DNA of 63,410 bases, the filler included, from Collodictyon triciliatum (Eukaryota): the NCBI GenBank assembly GCA_043381765.1. It is 23 parts of 23 records of this genome, joined end to end, with 100 filler letters (N's around TTAATTAATTAA, not from the genome) between each part and the next. Parts side by side here need not be neighbours in the genome. Positions count along the whole stretch, not along the records: positions 39,476 to 42,187 come from JBHJMP010008408.1; 22 more parts are not named here. One strand, 5' to 3'. The notes under the pieces are model-generated. The model saw nothing but the letters and a program-made list of their open reading frames with translations. It searched no databases and was not told the DNA's origin. Positions 29,343 to 53,043 of this stretch are shown in pieces; the stretch's first letter is position 1, and each line of letters opens with the position of its first letter. The translations under genes were made by a program, and so were the position numbers.

Positions 29343-29860
29343 TTTTTTTCTTCCATTCAACTTTTGTGCAGGACCGAGGGGGGGGTGTTGGCTTTGGTTC
29401 GCTAGCCATCGGTTGTATGGACGCTACTTGTCGGCGGAGGAGCAGTCGGTGCTCAGGATTGCATCCTGCGGTTTGGCCTGTGGCCTGGGTGTTACAAAGG
29501 GGTGTCTGGGGGCACGGGGGTTTTCCAAGAAGGGCAGACGTGGAATAGAGCGGGGACAATTCTGTGGGGTGTGTTTTTGTGGGGTCGAAGCTCGGCGTAG
29601 ATATGGCATCTCATTCCTCCCTCAAGGAAGCACTCTTCTGGTGACGTCATTTTCTTCGAAAGTTGTGGGGTGTGCTCCGTTGTCCGGCGAAGCACACCCC
29701 GTCTGCCCTGGATTGGGTATAACTGAGGGCACAGGAGGAGGGCTCAGGGAATGCGTGATACAGGGCCGGAATCACACACACCGCGCACCCTGTGGGGTTC
29801 GAACCACGTTCGCGCACGTCAGACGCTGTCCCATGCCAGCTGGACTACAACGTCTGCCCC
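29343..29860 (-). mobile_element. Full-length 518-bp non-autonomous retroelement (SINE-like): tRNA-like head, structured body, LINE-A tail, A-rich end
   Basis: Flanked by an exact 18-bp direct repeat TCCGAAAAGGAAGAACAT (29325-29342 and 29861-29878). Pol III A and B boxes sit at the 5' end, the body is shared with 41931-42187, and the tail is shared with 91-232. Confidence 0.92.
29785..29854 (-). promoter_or_regulatory. tRNA-derived head with internal Pol III promoter
   Basis: A box TAGTCCAGCTGG (29836-29847), D-stem GTCC/GGAC, B box GGTTCGAACCC (29795-29805), T-stem GTGG/CCAC. Acceptor and anticodon arms are degenerate, so this is not a functional tRNA. Confidence 0.8.
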
Positions 29861-30305
29861 TCCGAAAAGGAAGAACATAGACAGGCGCTGTTGGGAAGCA
29901 AAAGCAGCACCCGCAACTTCACCCGCCTCGGCCGAATTCCAAGCCCAACCAAACCCTGTGCTTTTGCTTCGATTCGAACCCGCCTCAAACGCTGGCAAAA
30001 TTGGCCGAGGCAGTCACAACCCACACGCTTCACCTGTCACGCTGCTTTCACTGAATGAATATCATGTCTTGTTCTTGTTCTTGTTCTTGTTCTTCCGCTT
30101 CACCGTCAAGGTCGATCAGCACTGTTTGTCCGATTTGTCATGTGCACGGCACCGTATCTTCTTCCTCGCCCACGACTCTCGCCTCTTCTGGTTTCCACCG
30201 ATCACCACCTTCTCCGCACTCTGTCTCTTTTTGCAAACCTGAAGAATACGAGGGAAACGCGTCCATCCTTGCAGTTTCCTCACTCTCTTTGCGATTCCCC
30301 TTCTT

Positions 30306-38364: not shown

Positions 38365-39283
38365 GGTATGGATTTAAAACACTAGTTTTTTTTNNNNNNN
38401 NNNNNNNNNNNNNNNNNNNNNNNNNNNNNNNNNNNNNNNNNNNNNNNNNNNNNNNNNNNNNNNNNNNNNNNNNNNNNNNNNNNNNNNNNNNNNNNNNNNN
38501 NNNNNNNNNNNNNNNNNNNNNNNNNNNNNNNNNNNNNNNNNNNNNNNNNNNNNNNNNNNNNNNNNNNNNNNNNNNNNNNNNNNNNNNNNNNNNNNNNNNN
38601 NNNNNNNNNNNNNNNNNNNNNNNNNNNNNNNNNNNNNNNNNNNNNNNNNNNNNNNNNNNNNNNNNNNNNNNNNNNNNNNNNNNNNNNNNNNNNNNNNNNN
38701 NNNNNNNNNNNNNNNNNNNNNNNNNNNNNNNNNNNNNNNNNNNNNNNNNNNNNNNNNNNNNNNNNNNNNNNNNNNNNNNNNNNNNNNNNNNNNNNNNNNN
38801 NNNNNNNNNNNNNNNNNNNNNNNNNNNNNNNNNNNNNNNNNNNNNNNNNNNNNNNNNNNNNNNNNNNNNNNNNNNNNNNNNNNNNNNNNNNNNNNNNNNN
38901 NNNNNNNNNNNNNNNNNNNNNNNNNNNNNNNNNNNNNNNNNNNNNNNNNNNNNNNNNNNNNNNNNNNNNNNNNNNNNNNNNNNNNNNNNNNNNNNNNNNN
39001 NNNNNNNNNNNNNNNNNNNNNNNNNNNNNNNNNNNNNNNNNNNNNNNNNNNNNNNNNNNNNNNNNNNNNNNNNNNNNNNNATATTCTTTTTTTTCTTTAA
39101 AAAAAAAAACACTGTCCAACTACGAAGCCTTCATCTCTGCACAATTTAACGTTCCTGGAGTTTCACAACCCTGTCGTCTAACAAATTTGGAGGTTATTAT
39201 TGCAAAATATGAAATTATTGCTTTTCCACACACACACAATTTTTCTCTTTTCGTTTCCCTTTTTACCTGTCTATTACATGATA

Positions 39284-39944: not shown

Positions 39945-41158
39945 TCAAAAAGTGCAGAATTCTTCAATGTTCCTAGGTTCGTCATTGACCCAAAACATTG
40001 ATGTGTCGTACGCTCGTTTAGGTTTTTTCATGATGATGCTGTTATCGATATATTTATCATATATCTTATATTTCGAATTACCATTGAAATGTATAAAAGA
40101 TGGTCTTGCATTGGTCGGAATATGCTCTAAATGATCGGCAGTTTTTTGAACCCATGGACATGTGGGCTGACATGCTTTTTCTATGTCAAACATTGTCATA
40201 GCAAACTCTACACAATAATCCAAATGAATTTCGGTTATTTTAAGTAAATATGCCTCATGAAAGAATTTCTGATCGTCGTGCCAACTGGATTTCGATGATA
40301 CTATCTCATCCCTTATCATTCCTAGCAAATCCTTTAGTGCCCCAGCGTAGGCTATGTATGTACCAGAATTGATGAACCTAGGCCTTGATTGATAGTACAT
40401 ACGTCAGAAATCCTTAAGCCAGTAATAGATTTAGTATGATATGGAAATCAATAGTTTAGCAAAGGCATTACATAGGGAGCTATCAGTTCAGATTATTATA
40501 GTTATTCATGTCACACTAACCCTCCTTTTAGACAAGTGTTATATGAGCTATTCATGTCATAAACGTGCTCACAGGCTCCTTTTTTTACCGCAGAATTCGG
40601 ATAAAATCTTCGTGCAACTTCGTCCGGGTAACAGTTATGCTCGACAGACATAATAATTGGTACGTTTTTTTTTATAAATTTTTCAACAATATTGTCCATG
40701 TAGTCGTTAAAGACAATATCCAAGCAATCAACAAGTATAATGATAGTGTCATTGGTGTACTTTTGGACGACATTGTTCATAATAAAAATTTTCTCTCGGA
40801 CATTCTTCCAAGGGAGGCCGAAATTGATGAGATGAAGAAACGCCCCATAGGAGTGTGCAGAACGTAAAAAATTACAAGTTTTCTGTTTTATCTCACTGCA
40901 AGTAGACATAACAACTGCGTTATGAATCTGTAAACCCTGATTATATAGCATTAGGTTTTGGCCGAGGCTGTCGCCAAGGTATGCGATAAGTCTCTTACTA
41001 GACTGGGTATTAAAATTTGTGTTACGTAATGATCCGGACATCGAGCCAGGTTCTATGTGTTTCCTTTCCAAGTCATCTCTTTCAGATGAGGAATGTGTGA
41101 TGAACACGAGCAGGATTATGTAAATCAAGAGCAACCTATTTGCAGCAGACGAAGACAT
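39945..41158 (-). CDS. PLOD/LH3-type glycosyltransferase-domain protein (2 exons; intron 40384-40520)
   Basis: N-terminal hydrophobic anchor, IILVDCLDIVF (DxxD), IIMSVEHNCYPD, GPRFINSGTYIAY, DDQKFF, IHLD and FIHFNGNSK. The GTTAG...AAG intron joins the two ORFs in frame. Confidence 0.88.
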
Positions 41159-41699
41159 TCTAAGAAATAAAGTTATCTTTTTTAGTGTGTGCGCTGAAGG
41201 CTTTCGTTGATTTCGATCTCGTGAGACACCATGACACGAATCCAAAAATTTTGTTTCAGAAGCCTATTGTGATTAATAATAAAAATTTATCGTGACATTG
41301 AAGAACTTGCCTCGCCTTTTGAGGTATTGTTTTTAATATTTATCTTGAATTATTCGACTTGCCCCGAAGGTGCAACTCCAATTGATTATTATTGTAAAAT
41401 TTGATCGCTTGTACGCTAAATAGGTGAGAGAATTTCTTAAATTATACTTTTTTTTACAATAATTGACTTATCGCCCAGAATTTCTGTTTTTAAGTGTTTC
41501 AATACTATTTTGATACGAAGAAAGTAAATAAGCCTTACTGTTTCAGTCATTGCTGCATGAGGGAGCTTACAGTCGGTAGATTTTATATTCATTAACATGC
41601 GATAGATCACAATATACAATTATGGACAAATGTTTACAAACTAAAATGGTTATCTACGTCTGGTAATATCACTCCATTCATCATTCACGACGCAAAAGG

Positions 41700-42187
41700 T
41701 AATGCGATAGATGGGTAAGTACAGCTGCGCATAGTATAGAGTAAAAGCGATTAGAAGATACTTCCATGGAGAGGCTAGCACTGGAAAGAAATCAGTGATA
41801 GATTTGGTCAGGCGGCCGTCTCGACTGGTTGATCGGTTTTTTTCTGATTCTTATAAGTTTATTTGGAATGGTCGAGAAGAGCTTGATGGGGAATGGCTTG
41901 GTAGGACGCGTGCCGGGGAAGCTTTTGCGAAGGGGTGTGTGGGTGGCATGGGGGATTTTCCATGAAGGGAAGGCATGGAATAGAGGGGGGACAATCCTCT
42001 GGGGTGACTTTTTTTGGGGTCGAAGCTCGGCGTAGATATGGTATCTCATTCCTCTCTCACGGAAGTACTCTTCTGGTGACGTCATTTTCTTCGAAAGTTG
42101 TGGGGTGTGCTCCGTTGTCCGGCGAAGCACACCCCGGCTGCCCTGGATTGGGTATAACTGAGGGCACAGGAGGAGGGCTCAGGGAAT
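41700..42187 (-). mobile_element. Second copy of the SINE-like element (head cut off by contig end) carrying a LINE-B tail
   Basis: 41931-42187 aligns with 29498-29752. 41712-41835 aligns with 46880-47010 (PINQSRRPPDQ/ITDFFPVLASP plus 3' UTR). Confidence 0.88.
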
Positions 42188-42498
42188 NNNNNNNNNNNNN
42201 NNNNNNNNNNNNNNNNNNNNNNNNNNNNNNNTTAATTAATTAANNNNNNNNNNNNNNNNNNNNNNNNNNNNNNNNNNNNNNNNNNNNATACAAATACAAA
42301 TACAATACAAATACAAATACAATACAAATACAAATACAAATACAAATACAAATACAAATACAAATACAAATACAAATACAAATACAAATACAAATACAAA
42401 TACAAATACAAATACAAATACAAATACAAATACAATAAATTGATATAAAAAAAAACAAGGAAAAGTGAAATCCATTTCCCCTTTCGATTCCGTCGCAG

Positions 42499-44999: not shown

Positions 45000-45102
45000 N
45001 NNNNNNNNNNNNNNNNNNNNNNNNNNNNNNNNNNNNNNNNNNNTTAATTAATTAANNNNNNNNNNNNNNNNNNNNNNNNNNNNNNNNNNNNNNNNNNNNA
45101 GC

Positions 45103-46746
45103 GTGTCAACCAACTGTGCAGGAAAAATAACTTCAGAGGAGGAATCCATAATGACAGGTAAAGTACCACCCAGCCCAGCCCAAGCATCGGATGAAAATGC
45201 ACTCGTCGTACCCACACCCAATTCCACAATAATGCAATGCAAGGAAAATGACCCACAAACTATATTAAAAACTACTGGCAATATACAAGACATCATCGAA
45301 ACACAAATACCTATTGACAGCTGTGATAATCAATTCGATGGCAATCCTCAAATTGACAGACAATCGTCGTTTGATTATCCAAGCGGTCTTAGTGTCAAAG
45401 ATATTGATGAAGACGAAAGTATTTTGTGGTTCCTATTTAACATTTGGAGGCTCATCATCAAACGCTCCCTCCTTGCTGCCACTACAGCTACGATGATCAT
45501 GTGTATATTTTATCTCCCGGCTATTGCCTTTCCAAAGGAGATACTTGAGAACCATCTTGAGCCGATTCTCTATGTACATGTCCGTGAAGTAGTTGCCCGT
45601 TCTATTAACATGATTACATACCTACTGGTCCTCATTTCCGTATTCGGATATGAGAAAACAAAGTCAACGGCATATTTCTATTGGCCAGTTTTATTTGTGT
45701 TTTACCTACTTCAATACTTTGTTGAAGTTTTTATGCGGTACACTATTCCATTCCTAGGGACTTTGCTCATCCCTTTAATGATTTACTGTATGATTATTAG
45801 AATACATTTGGACAACAAAAAAATCATTCCAATCGACGAGTCGGTTTTGGTCAAGCAAGATTGTATCAAATTGGCTAAACTAATACTCGCGGGGATGATG
45901 GTCTTGATTTTTTTCCAGGCGGTTGTTCAATACTTTGCAAAATCTAGCTTCGCAAAAAAAATGTTTATTCGGTTTATCATTTTCCCAGTCGTCAGTATTG
46001 GGGTGAGTAACTACCAATTCCTGATTATAGGGAATCACTTGGCCTCTTATACCCAATTCATCAATATAATTGCCTTCTCGCGCTATCATTTGCAATACAC
46101 AAGTCGTTCAATGATTACAAGCATCAGTAATGACCCATTCTCTTACGAATTTTTGCTTTTTTGTGTTGTGGCTTCTTGTGCAAAGTGTGTAAATCGGATC
46201 ACTATTAAACAACAAAATTACATCTCAATTATGGCGACTAGTTGGATGAAAAGGAGTGTCCGGATGGTACAGTTAGCGTCTATCTACATGGCAGAATCTA
46301 CCACACCAAACGAATTGGAACCAGACTCACTTGATGACCAGTTCATTTCAAATATTTCAAATCACAAAAAATCTGATGCAGAGAGGAGGCAGCATTTTGA
46401 TGAAGTGTTCCGTCAAATTCGTGCCGTTCATATTGTCGAGGGGGTCAGCGTCAGCATACAGACAATCATCACCACTCCTTTGCTATTTTATCTCTTAAAT
46501 AGGCTCTTTGTAGACAAAGGCCTGAATCTGATTACTTCTTTCACAGATTGTGCCGTCCAAGTAAGCGCCCAGCTCTTTTTGGAGTTTGTAACCAACACCT
46601 TTTTGTTTATATTTGAGAGTCGCTGTCTTTGCATCCCAATCAAAAGTGTTTTAGAAATAGAGAGTAGAACTTCATTCTATCTCCAGTTTCTTTTCATCAT
46701 GGGCCCGATACTTTATATCCATTTCATACTCCTCACATATTATTAA
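45103..46746 (+). CDS. Intronless multi-pass membrane protein (about 11 predicted TM helices), function unknown
   Basis: 547-codon ORF with a hydrophilic N-terminus followed by repeated ~20-aa hydrophobic segments. Confidence 0.8.
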   Translation: MSTNCAGKITSEEESIMTGKVPPSPAQASDENALVVPTPNSTIMQCKENDPQTILKTTGNIQDIIETQIPIDSCDNQFDGNPQIDRQSSFDYPSGLSVKDIDEDESILWFLFNIWRLIIKRSLLAATTATMIMCIFYLPAIAFPKEILENHLEPILYVHVREVVARSINMITYLLVLISVFGYEKTKSTAYFYWPVLFVFYLLQYFVEVFMRYTIPFLGTLLIPLMIYCMIIRIHLDNKKIIPIDESVLVKQDCIKLAKLILAGMMVLIFFQAVVQYFAKSSFAKKMFIRFIIFPVVSIGVSNYQFLIIGNHLASYTQFINIIAFSRYHLQYTSRSMITSISNDPFSYEFLLFCVVASCAKCVNRITIKQQNYISIMATSWMKRSVRMVQLASIYMAESTTPNELEPDSLDDQFISNISNHKKSDAERRQHFDEVFRQIRAVHIVEGVSVSIQTIITTPLLFYLLNRLFVDKGLNLITSFTDCAVQVSAQLFLEFVTNTFLFIFESRCLCIPIKSVLEIESRTSFYLQFLFIMGPILYIHFILLTYY

Positions 46747-46835: not shown

Positions 46836-47810
46836 TTTTTTCTTTTTATTCAATTATAAGTGTAGCGAGGTTATGCCAAAGGGGCAAGATAGGTGCGCAT
46901 GGTAGAGAGCAAACGCGAGTAGGAGAAGACACTACCGTGGAGAGGGTAGAACTGGAAAGAAATCAGTGATAGCGAGTTGGTCAGGTGGACGTCCCAACTG
47001 GTTGATTGGCTGCGTGGGTAGCATGGGTTGGATATGTTGTGGGAGATATCGCACGGCACATTCCCACATCTCTCTTCGCTTGCGGTCAGAGCAGCGAAGA
47101 ATGCGAGCGTGTTTCAGCAGACTGTTCAGGAAGCTGTATTGCACGAGGCTTTCCAGCCTGGATGCATTGATTTTTCGTTCGGATGACTCATTGGAGCGAG
47201 AGAATGCACGCACACTCCATAAGGAAAACAGCATATGTCCCCTTGTGACTGTCCAGAGTATTCTAGAGTCGTGGGTCATTTTGTGTTGTAGGCCAAACAG
47301 TATGTCAGAGGTGCTGAGTTGGTTGGGAGCATAATCAAGCTCAGATAGCATCTTGTGGGTAGATTCTGTGACTTTTTGAGAAAGGGAGCACTTCACAAAT
47401 GTGTGTTCGATAGAGTCATCTCCACTATGGCACATGGTGCGTTCTGGAGAGTTCGTTGCTGCATGGACTGCACGCGCACCTATCCAAAGCTCTCTGTTGG
47501 AGATATTGAGAAGTAGGGCGCGGTGTTTCGGGAGTAGCTGAGGTATACGGGCTTGCTTCCAGCTTTTGACTATTAGCGGGTCTATAATGCCTATAGTTTC
47601 GGCCCAACGACTCATTTTCTCCGGTTTCTAGGGATTCGGGCTGATGATTTTATATCGAAACAGCTTGGAGTACGCCATGGCCATCGAGAATTGCGGAGGG
47701 TCAGGTGTAATGGACCGCCTTTGGTTCTTCAGGCGAAAGAAAAATGGCGACGGTGCTCCGTATGAGATGGGACGTCGTGAGCGCCATTCTCCTTTGTTGT
47801 TCAGGACGGC
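46836..47810 (-). mobile_element. L1/Tx1-like LINE (family B), 3' part of ORF2 with zf-RVT region, 3' UTR and A-rich end; defective copy
   Basis: W..ARIPQLLPKHRALLLNISNREL...RTMCHSGDDSIEHTFVKC (CCHC finger with the first Cys lost) and LFSLWSVR. One in-frame TAG at 47628-47630; the frame is otherwise open to the contig end. Confidence 0.88.
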
Positions 47811-47910: not shown

Positions 47911-48005
47911 TTTTTTGCTTAATTCAATTCAAAGTGCAGCGAGGATGTGCCATACAAAGGGGCAAGATAGGTGCGCATGGTAGAGAGCAGACGCGAGTAG
48001 GAGAG
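47911..48005 (-). mobile_element. 5'-truncated family-B LINE 3' UTR copy
   Basis: aaaggggcaagataggtgcgcatggtagagagca..cgcgagtaggaga is nearly identical to 46878-46926 and is followed by an A tail. Confidence 0.85.
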
Positions 48006-52039: not shown

Positions 52040-53043
52040 ACCGCAAAGGATCTGCACTATGCAGAACGTCGACGAAGTCTGCTTCACACAAGACCCACAG
52101 AGGCTGTGCGTTATGCCGGACTGCGAAGAAGTCTGCTTCACACAAGACCCGCAAAGGCTCTCCACTATGCCGGACTGCGACGGAGTCTGCTCCACACACA
52201 ACCCGCAAAGGCTCTCCACTATGCCGAACGTCGACGAAGTCTGCTTCGCACAAGACCCGCAAAGGCTCTCCACTACGCCGAACGTCGACGCATTCTGCTT
52301 CACACAAGACCCGCAAAGGCTCTCCACTATGCCGAACGTCGACGAAGTCTGCTTCACACAAGACCCACAAAGGCTGTGCGTTATGCCGGGATACGACGCA
52401 GTCTGCTTCACACAAGACCCGCAAAGGCTCTCCACTATGCCGGAATACGACGCAGTCTGCCCCACACACGCAAGACCCACGAAGGCCCTCCACTATGCCG
52501 GACTGCAACGCAGTCTGTTTCACACAAGACCCGCAAAGGCTCTCCACTATGCCGAACGTCGACGAAATCTGCTTCACACAAGACCCGCAAAGGATCTCCG
52601 CTATGCCGAACGTCGACGCAGTCTGCTCCACACAAGACCCGCAAAGGATCTCCGCTATGCTGAACGTCGACGAAGTCTGCTCCACACAAGACCCGCAAAG
52701 GCTGCACTATGCCGAACGTCGACACAGTCTGCTTCACACACAACCCTCGAAGGCTCTGCACTATGCCGGAATACGACGCAGTCTGCTTCACACAAGACCC
52801 GCAAAGGCTCTCCACTATGCCGGAATACGACGCAGTCTGCTTCATACAAGACCCACAAAGGCTCTCCACTATGCCGGTATATGACGACGAAGTCTGCTTC
52901 ACACAAGACCCGCAAAAGCTCTCCACTATGCCGGAATACGACGCAGTCTGCTTCACACAAGACCCGCAAAGGCTCTCCACTATGCCGAACGCCGATAAGT
53001 CTGCTTCACACACATGCAAGATTCTGTACTATGCCGGAATACC
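52040..53043. repeat. CpG-rich 54-bp minisatellite, about 18 units, with degenerate units at 53255-53433
   Basis: Unit CCGCAAAGGCTCTCCACTATGCCGAACGTCGACGAAGTCTGCTTCACACAAGAC. Indels of +4 and -2 break the reading frame. Confidence 0.95.

What the first reader, a model, noticed from the sequence alone, without database searches (positions are those of the whole stretch)
41700..42187. Tail swapping: the same SINE body is joined to 3' ends of two different LINE families
Seen in sequence: about 255 bp of body is shared between 41931-42187 and 29498-29752. Downstream, copy 1 continues into the family-A 3' end (91-232) and copy 2 into the family-B 3' end (46880-47010). The two tails show little nucleotide similarity, although their parent ORFs are homologous. 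Both captured tails begin ~10 codons upstream of the PIP-box codons. Inference: a modular non-autonomous element has exchanged RT-recognition tails, perhaps by template switching, and so uses two LINE lineages. Both partner LINE ends are present in this window.
Basis: partly seen in the sequence, partly recalled or inferred. Interest (0 to 1): 0.85.

Follow-up and report, generated by a model that had tools for sequence, protein, structure and literature searches.

The report
One SINE body, two LINE tails
Two copies of a small parasitic repeat (a SINE) share the same middle part but end in the 3' ends of two different LINE families; such tail exchange is already well known, and here the second form rests on one incomplete copy with an unexplained 93-base joint.

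Summary
The sequence observation holds. The 258 bases at 41930-42187 match 29497-29752 at 92.6%. The 29k copy runs straight into a LINE-A 3' end. The 41k copy carries a LINE-B 3' end.

The elements lie on the minus strand. The 29k copy is a complete 518-bp SINE with a tRNA-like head and an 18-bp target-site duplication, so the LINE-A pairing is sound.

The B-tailed form is one copy only:
- It is cut inside the body by a contig end at 42187.
- Body and B tail are separated by 93 bases that match nothing. That segment ends in GAAT..A7, much like the element 3' ends seen here.
- The window is a chain of about 2.7-kb unplaced contigs, so finding both LINE ends "in the window" has no positional meaning.

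In favour of a real tail capture, LINE-B homology starts at the same aligned codon as LINE-A homology in the proven SINE. No extra B-form copy could be reached because no genome is held.

Best reading (0.45): LINE-B reverse transcriptase added a LINE-B 3' module behind an existing SINE 3' end by template switching. Whether that form then spread is open. Rivals are independent adjacent or nested insertion, and misassembly. Tail exchange between SINEs is already published, so this is a new member of a known kind.

The parts
29343..29860 (-). Complete A-tailed SINE copy, 518 bp: head, body, LINE-A-derived tail and a short A-run
   Evidence: Bounded by an 18-bp direct repeat. GC is 0.576 against 0.399 in the flanks.
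29325..29342 (.). Target-site duplication, left copy (TCCGAAAAGGAAGAACAT)
   Evidence: Read. The same 18-mer stands at 29861-29878.
29861..29878 (.). Target-site duplication, right copy
29785..29854 (-). tRNA-like head (Val-GAC-like cloverleaf containing GGTTCGAACCC)
   Evidence: ARAGORN calls it only with the threshold lowered to 80%. Default ARAGORN and Rfam do not call it.
29497..29752 (-). Body shared with the 41k copy
   Evidence: 92.6% over 258.
29343..29496 (-). LINE-A-derived 3' tail of the SINE
   Evidence: 82.2% (120/146) to window 88-245.
41930..42187 (-). Body of the second SINE copy, cut at 42187 by the contig end; head not visible
41837..41929 (-). 93-bp joint segment of unknown origin; on the minus strand it ends ...AAGAATCAGAAAAAAA
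   Evidence: No match in the window beyond chance 10-19-mers. Not above shuffles against either LINE or either tail. Its three translations are not significant against 7 LINE proteins: 21 tests, lowest p 0.013.
41680..41836 (-). LINE-B-like 3' module: last 25 codons, with a 2-bp deletion after the PIP codons, plus the 3' UTR; ends ...GAATGATGAATGGAG with no A-run
   Evidence: 80.3% to the 46k LINE-B and 77.1% to L001. 35/35 identical to L001 over the PIP codons; run P 0.0003.
1..245 (+). LINE-A 3' end at a contig start; the ORF ends at 188 (...RRMPLLITDYFSATRPPSSVHANNC*)
46850..47810 (-). LINE-B 3' part up to the contig end; the last ORF, 46932-47627, ends ...PINQLGRPPDQLAITDFFPVLPSPR*
   Evidence: zf-RVT at 22.9 bits, below the 27.5 cut-off. 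Relatives.
47911..48004 (-). Second LINE-B 3' end, at a contig start
   Evidence: 85.1% over 94 to 46837-46926.
17386..17445 (+). LINE-A 3' end of about 60 bp, 5'-truncated, followed by A-rich repeats
   Evidence: 23-bp hit at 95.7%; sequence read.
42188..42287 (.). Artificial contig linker, N44-TTAATTAATTAA-N44

Best explanation
Both loci are copies of one SINE family with a tRNA-like head. It is mobilised by L1-like LINEs that recognise their own 3' end (the stringent type). The SINE carries a copy of that 3' end, namely the last ~25 codons including the PIP-box codons plus the 3' UTR, and is inserted by target-primed reverse transcription. For LINE-A this is shown by a complete copy flanked by a TSD. 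The 41k copy is read as a tail addition. A LINE-B reverse transcriptase copied the 3' ~157 nt of a LINE-B RNA, then switched template onto the 3' end of a SINE RNA. That SINE RNA ended in the 93-nt segment with its GAAT..A7 terminus. The result is body + old 3' end + LINE-B module. The structure is shown. The template switch is inferred. Whether the composite was later transcribed and spread as a true B subfamily is open.
For: The SINE nature of the 29k copy rests. Tail identities to the LINEs are highly significant. LINE-B homology begins exactly at codon P of PINQ..., and LINE-A homology in the proven SINE begins at Q|DPGY. These are the same column of the ungapped part of protein alignment A6. 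A random 5' truncation or random insertion site would rarely hit that point. No direct repeat of 7 nt or more flanks the B fragment on its own. The B fragment is not evenly decayed: it is 35/35 identical to LINE-B copy L001 over the PIP codons while only 75% identical overall, P 0.0003. This fits recent descent from another LINE-B subfamily better than an old dead copy. Metagenome contigs show several LINE-B 3' UTR variants (table 7). The joint segment ends GAATCAGAAAAAAA, much like the 3' ends seen here: SINE-A, 3 LINE-B ends and the 17k LINE-A end. That is what a switch onto an RNA 3' end would leave. The family is multi-copy: besides the 41k form, the body pieces show at least three variants (X1 record 8, X2 record 15, and a 29k-like form in X3 record 19 and X4 record 25). 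Template switching is the published model for exchange of SINE modules (passages of PMC4758252).
Against: Only one such copy is known. Its head, 5' end and TSD lie beyond the contig end at 42187. Its distal end has no A-run, unlike the 5 other complete element ends seen (SINE-A, three LINE-B ends, the 17k LINE-A end). An A-run exactly at the joint is equally what two abutting retro-insertions would show, and LINE ends truncated to about 60 bp do occur here. The only body contig from elsewhere that crosses the 3' end of the body goes into the A tail. Consensus folds of the tails gave just 1-2 compensatory pairs from 2-3 sequences, which is no real support for a conserved recognition structure.
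Confidence: 0.45

Rival explanations
1. Independent insertions. A SINE subfamily's own tail is the 93-bp segment ending in the A-run. It lies next to, or inside, a LINE-B copy by chance, either by inserting into a LINE-B 3' region or by a 5'-truncated LINE-B landing beside it. No tail swap took place.
For: The joint segment ends like a retroelement 3' end, GAAT..A7. Very short 5'-truncated LINE ends exist in this genome (17386-17445). The B form is seen once only. The distal end lacks an A-run.
Against: The LINE-B break point coincides to the codon with the tail boundary of the proven A-tailed SINE. No TSD of 7 nt or more surrounds the B fragment alone. No LINE matching the 93-bp segment was found, although only 63 kb could be searched.
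Confidence: 0.3
2. A true, amplified B-tailed SINE subfamily. Head, body, 93-bp segment and LINE-B tail form one transcribed unit that LINE-B mobilises repeatedly, alongside the A-tailed subfamily.
For: Same as for the best explanation. In addition, both tails are about equally distant from their LINEs, 82% and 80%. Both SINE copies end in nearly the same GAATGGA(A)G, while the LINE copies end differently. This reading is the best explanation plus later spread; the confidence given here is for that extra step being true.
Against: No second copy was seen anywhere that could be searched. There is no TSD evidence. The distal end has no A-run.
Confidence: 0.3
3. Assembly chimera. A short-read assembler joined reads from different repeats inside the SINE, so the body-to-joint-to-B-tail order does not exist in the genome.
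For: The contig is an unplaced 2.7-kb piece that ends inside the SINE body. Many of the contigs begin or end in microsatellites, so this assembly breaks at repeats.
Against: No repeated word links the joint segment to any other place in the window. The unique flank 41100-41392 is reproduced exactly in independent metagenome contigs, but those do not reach the junction.
Confidence: 0.1
4. The body is the shared 5' part of internally deleted LINEs (bipartite non-autonomous LINEs), not a SINE body.
For: Kojima 2018 (PMC5786205; abstract and one passage seen) shows that LINE 5' parts can form SINE middles. No LINE 5' end is present in the window to compare with.
Against: The 29k copy begins with a tRNA-like head directly after its TSD and is only 518 bp long. 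This makes it a SINE even if its body once came from a LINE.
Confidence: 0.05

Closest known systems
SINE superfamilies that keep a body and exchange LINE-derived tails: CORE-, V- and Deu-SINEs, and the mollusc SINEs of Matetovici et al. 2016 (PMC4758252, passages read). 'Occasional tail exchange of SINEs' appears in Kojima 2018 (PMC5786205, abstract).
   Same: tRNA-like head, a shared body and different LINE-derived 3' tails. Template switching by the LINE RT, or recombination, is the proposed mechanism.
   Different: Here each form is known from a single copy in the window, and the B form has an extra 93-bp joint. The body was not compared with the named conserved domains because no reference sequences were at hand. 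The names CORE, V and Deu come from the paper's text and from recall.
HaSE1 / HaSE2 of Helicoverpa armigera (PMC3272025, abstract)
   Same: Two SINEs share the tRNA-related region and central domain but have different 3' regions.
   Different: In that case one tail is from an RTE LINE and the other from a mariner-like element. Here both tails are from homologous L1-like LINEs.
L1-clade SINE/LINE pairs with stringent 3' recognition: maize ZmSINE2 and ZmSINE3 with LINE1-1_ZM, and a green-algal pair (Ohshima 2012, PMC3472496, text shown)
   Same: A SINE shares a specific 3' end with a LINE. The LINE's distant full-length relatives have Exo_endo_phos + RVT_1 + zf-RVT. That paper found only 3 L1-tailed SINEs among 58 pairs.
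   Different: Clade membership of LINE-A and LINE-B is not established, since only their C-termini are in the window. The host is an unidentified eukaryote.
U6-L1 and similar chimeric retrocopies made by RT template switching (recalled; no paper read)
   Same: A LINE 3' part joined to another small RNA copy in a single insertion.
   Different: In those, the switch goes to a cellular small RNA and the chimeras do not propagate.

Membership tests
LINE-tailed (stringent-type) tRNA-derived SINE | 5' head derived from a tRNA, with internal pol III boxes | tested here: inconclusive
   Default ARAGORN gave 0 genes. Rfam at E<=1 gave no tRNA. ARAGORN at an 80% threshold calls a Val(GAC)-like cloverleaf at 29785-29854. 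GGTTCGAACCC fits the B-box consensus, which is recalled. The head of the 41k copy is off the contig.
LINE-tailed (stringent-type) tRNA-derived SINE | Short, non-coding, flanked by target-site duplications | tested here: met
   The 29k copy is 518 bp with an 18-bp TSD. Its longest reading frames have no protein relatives. This cannot be tested for the 41k copy.
LINE-tailed (stringent-type) tRNA-derived SINE | 3' tail homologous to the 3' end of a LINE in the same genome | tested here: met
   A tail: 82.2% (120/146). B module: 80.3% (122/152). That the contigs come from one genome is assumed from their being in one assembly.
LINE-tailed (stringent-type) tRNA-derived SINE | Many dispersed copies | tested here: inconclusive
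   Two copies in the window. Five clear body pieces lie among the 25 listed pieces of 4 metagenome runs, with 4 more not shown. They include at least two variants that differ from both window copies. No genome was available for a count.
SINE subfamilies with exchanged tails | The same head and body joined to two different LINE tails | tested here: inconclusive
   The body is shared at 92.6% and the tails are unrelated at the DNA level. However, the 41k head is unseen and a 93-bp unmatched segment intervenes.
SINE subfamilies with exchanged tails | Each tail type present in several copies with a fixed junction and its own TSDs | not testable with these tools
   No genome is held. The collections searched gave no further SINE copy.
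L1-clade LINE (for LINE-A and LINE-B) | APE endonuclease + RT + C-terminal zinc-knuckle domain, placed in L1 by an RT phylogeny | tested here: inconclusive
   Only the C-terminus is in the window. zf-RVT scores 22.9 bits against a cut-off of 27.5. Distant full-length relatives at 26-31% identity have Exo_endo_phos + RVT_1, and 2 of 3 also have zf-RVT below cut-off. No RT phylogeny was possible.

The most novel reading that the evidence does not exclude
Two homologous L1-like LINE lineages each donated a 3' module to the same SINE body, cut at exactly the same codon 10 codons before a C-terminal PIP box. If so, this LINE group has a discrete RT-recognition or template-switch module whose 5' edge is fixed and which overlaps the PIP-box codons, and the SINE moves between partner LINEs by swapping that module.
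Probability: 0.3. Interest if true: 0.45.

Novelty: new member of a known kind. Interest (0 to 1): 0.25.

Why it matters
If the B-tailed form does spread, this would be a clean pair of SINE subfamilies parasitising two related stringent L1-like LINEs. The tail boundary would be the same to the codon, which could help define the minimal 3' recognition module of such LINEs. L1-type SINE/LINE tail sharing is uncommon: 3 of 58 pairs in Ohshima 2012. As it stands, the principle of tail exchange is textbook for SINEs, and the evidence is one truncated copy on an unplaced contig.

Tried and rejected
Whole genome: none is held.

Sequencing runs: 20 runs held small shares (0.05-0.17) of the 41k contig's words, and one further run, added as the same study, held next to none. 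Contigs of 4 metagenome runs were laid on 41100-42187 at 80% likeness. No contig covered 41802-41913, that is the joint segment and the start of the B module. This is a gap in cover, not evidence. The organism's unique flank is present at a depth of only 2-6.

Pattern scans:
- A 26-base word from the body hairpin gave 0 hits in metagenome contigs, genome contigs and viral contigs.
- A 27-base word from the joint segment gave 0 hits in genome contigs.
- A 21-base word from the PIP codons in metagenome contigs gave 2 loci. L001 is an ordinary LINE-B 3' end with ORF upstream. L002 is an unrelated chance match.

Protein route to further SINE copies: the 128-aa frame through body, joint and B tail, and the 191-aa frame through the whole 29k SINE, each gave 0 hits in the near-length range. 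LINE-B ORF against longer proteins gave 0 hits.

Earlier scan notes: nothing by sequence, by genome or by relatives.

Joint segment as diverged LINE coding sequence: not significant.

Consensus RNA folds of the tails: too few sequences to say anything.

Pfam on 118 of the 141 frames of 90 aa or more found no further RT or endonuclease piece. The 23 left out were the frames inside the two tandem arrays and the SINE and LINE frames already examined.

Supplements of the papers were closed. Repbase-style consensus sequences that might name this SINE could not be consulted.

Full report
WHAT THE WINDOW IS. The 63,410 bases are not one stretch of chromosome. They are 27 sequence pieces (about 22 contigs). 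Most are whole contigs of about 2.7 kb, listed in roughly falling order of length, and some are parts of a contig split by an internal N gap. The contigs are joined by N44-TTAATTAATTAA-N44 linkers. Many contigs begin or end in microsatellites. This is therefore a chain of unplaced, repeat-limited contigs from a eukaryote of 39% GC. Host genes include a PLOD-GT-domain gene, a protein kinase and a RING finger. No whole genome is held for it. Two consequences follow. Finding both LINE ends 'in this window' has no positional meaning. And the right-hand limit of the finding, 42187, is a contig end.

THE OBSERVATION. Self-BLAST confirms three matches:
- 41930-42187 vs 29497-29752: 92.6% over 258, E 2e-105.
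- 41697-41836 vs 46868-47009: 79.3% over 145, E 3e-28.
- 29386-29493 vs 204-88: 80.3% over 117, E 1e-25.

The A and B tails have no DNA similarity above shuffles. The LINE ORF ends are nevertheless homologous (E 0.004; alignment A6).

ANATOMY. All elements except LINE-A read on the minus strand.

The 29k copy is complete. It spans 29343-29860, 518 bp, and is flanked by the 18-bp direct repeat TCCGAAAAGGAAGAACAT at 29325-29342 and 29861-29878. Its GC is 0.58 against 0.40 in the flanks. It starts with a tRNA-like head containing GGTTCGAACCC. ARAGORN calls this a Val(GAC)-like cloverleaf at 29785-29854 only when its threshold is lowered to 80%. Default ARAGORN and Rfam do not call it. Body and A tail follow, and the element ends ...GTTGAATGGAAG plus a run of 7-8 A.

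The A tail covers the last ~28 codons of LINE-A and its 3' UTR. LINE-A itself is seen only as 245 bp at a contig start. A fragment of about 60 bp, 5'-truncated and followed by A-rich repeats, lies at 17386-17445.

The 41k copy shows, in SINE orientation:
- Body, 42187 down to 41930. The head lies beyond the contig end.
- A 93-bp segment, 41929-41837, ending ...AAGAATCAGAAAAAAA.
- 157 bp, 41836-41680, homologous to the LINE-B 3' end. This is 80.3% to the 46k copy and 77.1% to metagenome locus L001.

LINE-B is seen three times. One copy is at 46850-47810 with ORF upstream. One is at 47911-48004. The third is locus L001, which is 92.5% identical to the 46k copy.

THE LINES. The LINE-B C-terminal ORF has a sub-threshold zf-RVT match of 22.9 bits against a cut-off of 27.5. 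Atlas neighbours also carry zf-RVT. An exhaustive phmmer search gave only 13 hits.
- Close hits are fragments. P0002, P0005 and P0007 end in Q-x-x-I-T-[DN]-F-F, a canonical PIP-box pattern (the pattern itself is recalled).
- P0012 is a LINE-A relative.
- Three distant full-length hits at 26-31% identity have Exo_endo_phos + RVT_1, two of them with sub-threshold zf-RVT, and no such C-terminal motif.

The group is therefore L1-like in architecture. Clade membership is not established.

WHAT SPEAKS FOR A REAL TAIL CAPTURE.
- (a) LINE-B homology in the 41k copy begins exactly at the first base of codon P in PINQLGRPPDQLAITDFF. LINE-A homology in the proven SINE begins at Q|DPGYRPNRRMPLLITDYF. In the protein alignment these two points fall in the same column of an ungapped block. 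A random LINE truncation or a random insertion site would seldom fall there.
- (b) No direct repeat of 7 nt or more flanks the B fragment alone.
- (c) Its divergence from LINE-B is uneven. It is 35/35 identical to L001 over the PIP codons while 75% identical overall; shuffled mismatch positions reach such a run with P 0.0003. That fits recent descent from a different LINE-B subfamily better than an old neutrally decayed copy. The metagenome contigs show several LINE-B 3' UTR variants around the same conserved 35-mer (tables 7 and 8).
- (d) Both SINE copies end in almost the same GAATGGA(A)G, unlike the LINE copies. This is a match of only 9 nt and therefore weak.

WHAT SPEAKS AGAINST, OR IS MISSING.
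- The B form is a single copy without a visible head, 5' end or TSD.
- The 93-bp segment matches nothing as DNA or as protein (21 tests, lowest p 0.013).
- That segment ends like the retroelement 3' ends of this genome, GAAT followed by an A-run. Two abutting or nested insertions would also leave this signature.
- The distal end of the B module has no A-run, unlike the 5 other complete element ends seen.
- The only body contig from elsewhere that crosses the 3' end of the body runs into the A tail. This is X1 record 8, with 36 loose letters, of which the 30 shown equal the 29k A-tail start by eye. It differs from both window copies at several sites and is therefore a third copy.

THE SINE FAMILY IS MULTI-COPY. 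Five clear body pieces were laid from four metagenome runs (X1 record 8; X2 records 15 and 16; X3 record 19; X4 record 25). They lie among 25 listed pieces, with 4 more not shown. They show at least two variants beyond the two window copies.

MECHANISM AND ODDS. For the A form the usual model applies: a pol III transcript, recognition of the LINE-derived 3' tail by the LINE-A RT, then target-primed reverse transcription leaving an 18-bp TSD. The structure is shown; the recognition step is inferred from the known behaviour of stringent LINE/SINE pairs (PMC3472496, text shown).

For the 41k locus my readings are:
- 0.45: a LINE-B 3' module was added behind an existing SINE 3' end by RT template switching.
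- About 0.3: that composite also spread as a subfamily. This counts inside the 0.45.
- 0.3: independent adjacent or nested insertion.
- 0.1: assembly chimera.
- 0.05: the body is a LINE 5' part.

COMPARISON WITH WHAT IS KNOWN. Exchange of tails and other modules between SINEs, with template switching or recombination as the mechanism, is established. I saw it in passages of PMC4758252, the abstract and one passage of PMC5786205 and the abstract of PMC3272025. Even if fully true, this is a new member of a known kind. Two points are less common. The partner LINEs look L1-like, and Ohshima found only 3 L1-tailed SINEs among 58 pairs. And both captured modules start at the same codon and include PIP-box codons.

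VERDICT. A genome-wide census of what follows the body, together with long reads across 41600-42187, would settle it.

Noticed in passing
whole window, e.g. 2726-2825 and 42188-42287: The window is a chain of unplaced contigs of about 2.7 kb in roughly falling length order, joined by N44-TTAATTAATTAA-N44 linkers. Four longer internal N gaps occur at 12947-13432, 38394-39080, 55233-55684 and 62476-62575. Neighbourhood across linkers is meaningless.
   Followed up: yes
46935-46985 (-) and 126-150 (+); proteins P0002, P0005, P0007, P0012: LINE-A, LINE-B and their close relatives end in a canonical-looking PIP box (QxxITDFF-like) about 10 residues before the stop. Distant full-length relatives lack it. 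In human L1 ORF2p the canonical PIP motif lies at residues 407-415 in the N-terminal extension (passage of PMC7617806). A C-terminal PIP box in an L1-like LINE group may deserve its own look. PCNA binding was not tested.
   Followed up: partly
42102-42135 and 29667-29700: The SINE body holds a perfect 10-bp inverted repeat, GGGGTGTGCT...AGCACACCCC (read by eye). The 26 bases inside it are unchanged in both window copies and in all metagenome body contigs that cover it.
   Followed up: no
17386-17480: A LINE-A 3' end of about 60 bp, 5'-truncated, followed by (A)nG repeats. It shows that very short truncated LINE copies occur in this genome.
   Followed up: partly
39948-41263 (-): Two exon-like frames with a PLOD glycosyltransferase domain (Pfam GT_PLOD, E 1e-7 and 1e-12) lie about 420 bp from the 3' end of the 41k SINE. 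The SINE sits upstream of this gene on the same strand.
   Followed up: no
9396-11104 and 52041-53012: Two long tandem arrays: a 69-bp unit with about 25 copies at 77% match, lying inside very long open frames on both strands, and a 54-bp unit with about 18 copies at 85% match. They may be coding repeats or satellites.
   Followed up: no
45100-46746 (+): A 548-aa open frame rich in hydrophobic stretches, with no Pfam match, lies next to the LINE-B copy.
   Followed up: no
41100-41392: Metagenome contigs from subsurface and lake-water runs reproduce this unique flank without a single difference: X1 record 1, X4 records 20 and 21. DNA of this organism or a very close relative is therefore present at low depth in such samples.
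   Followed up: partly
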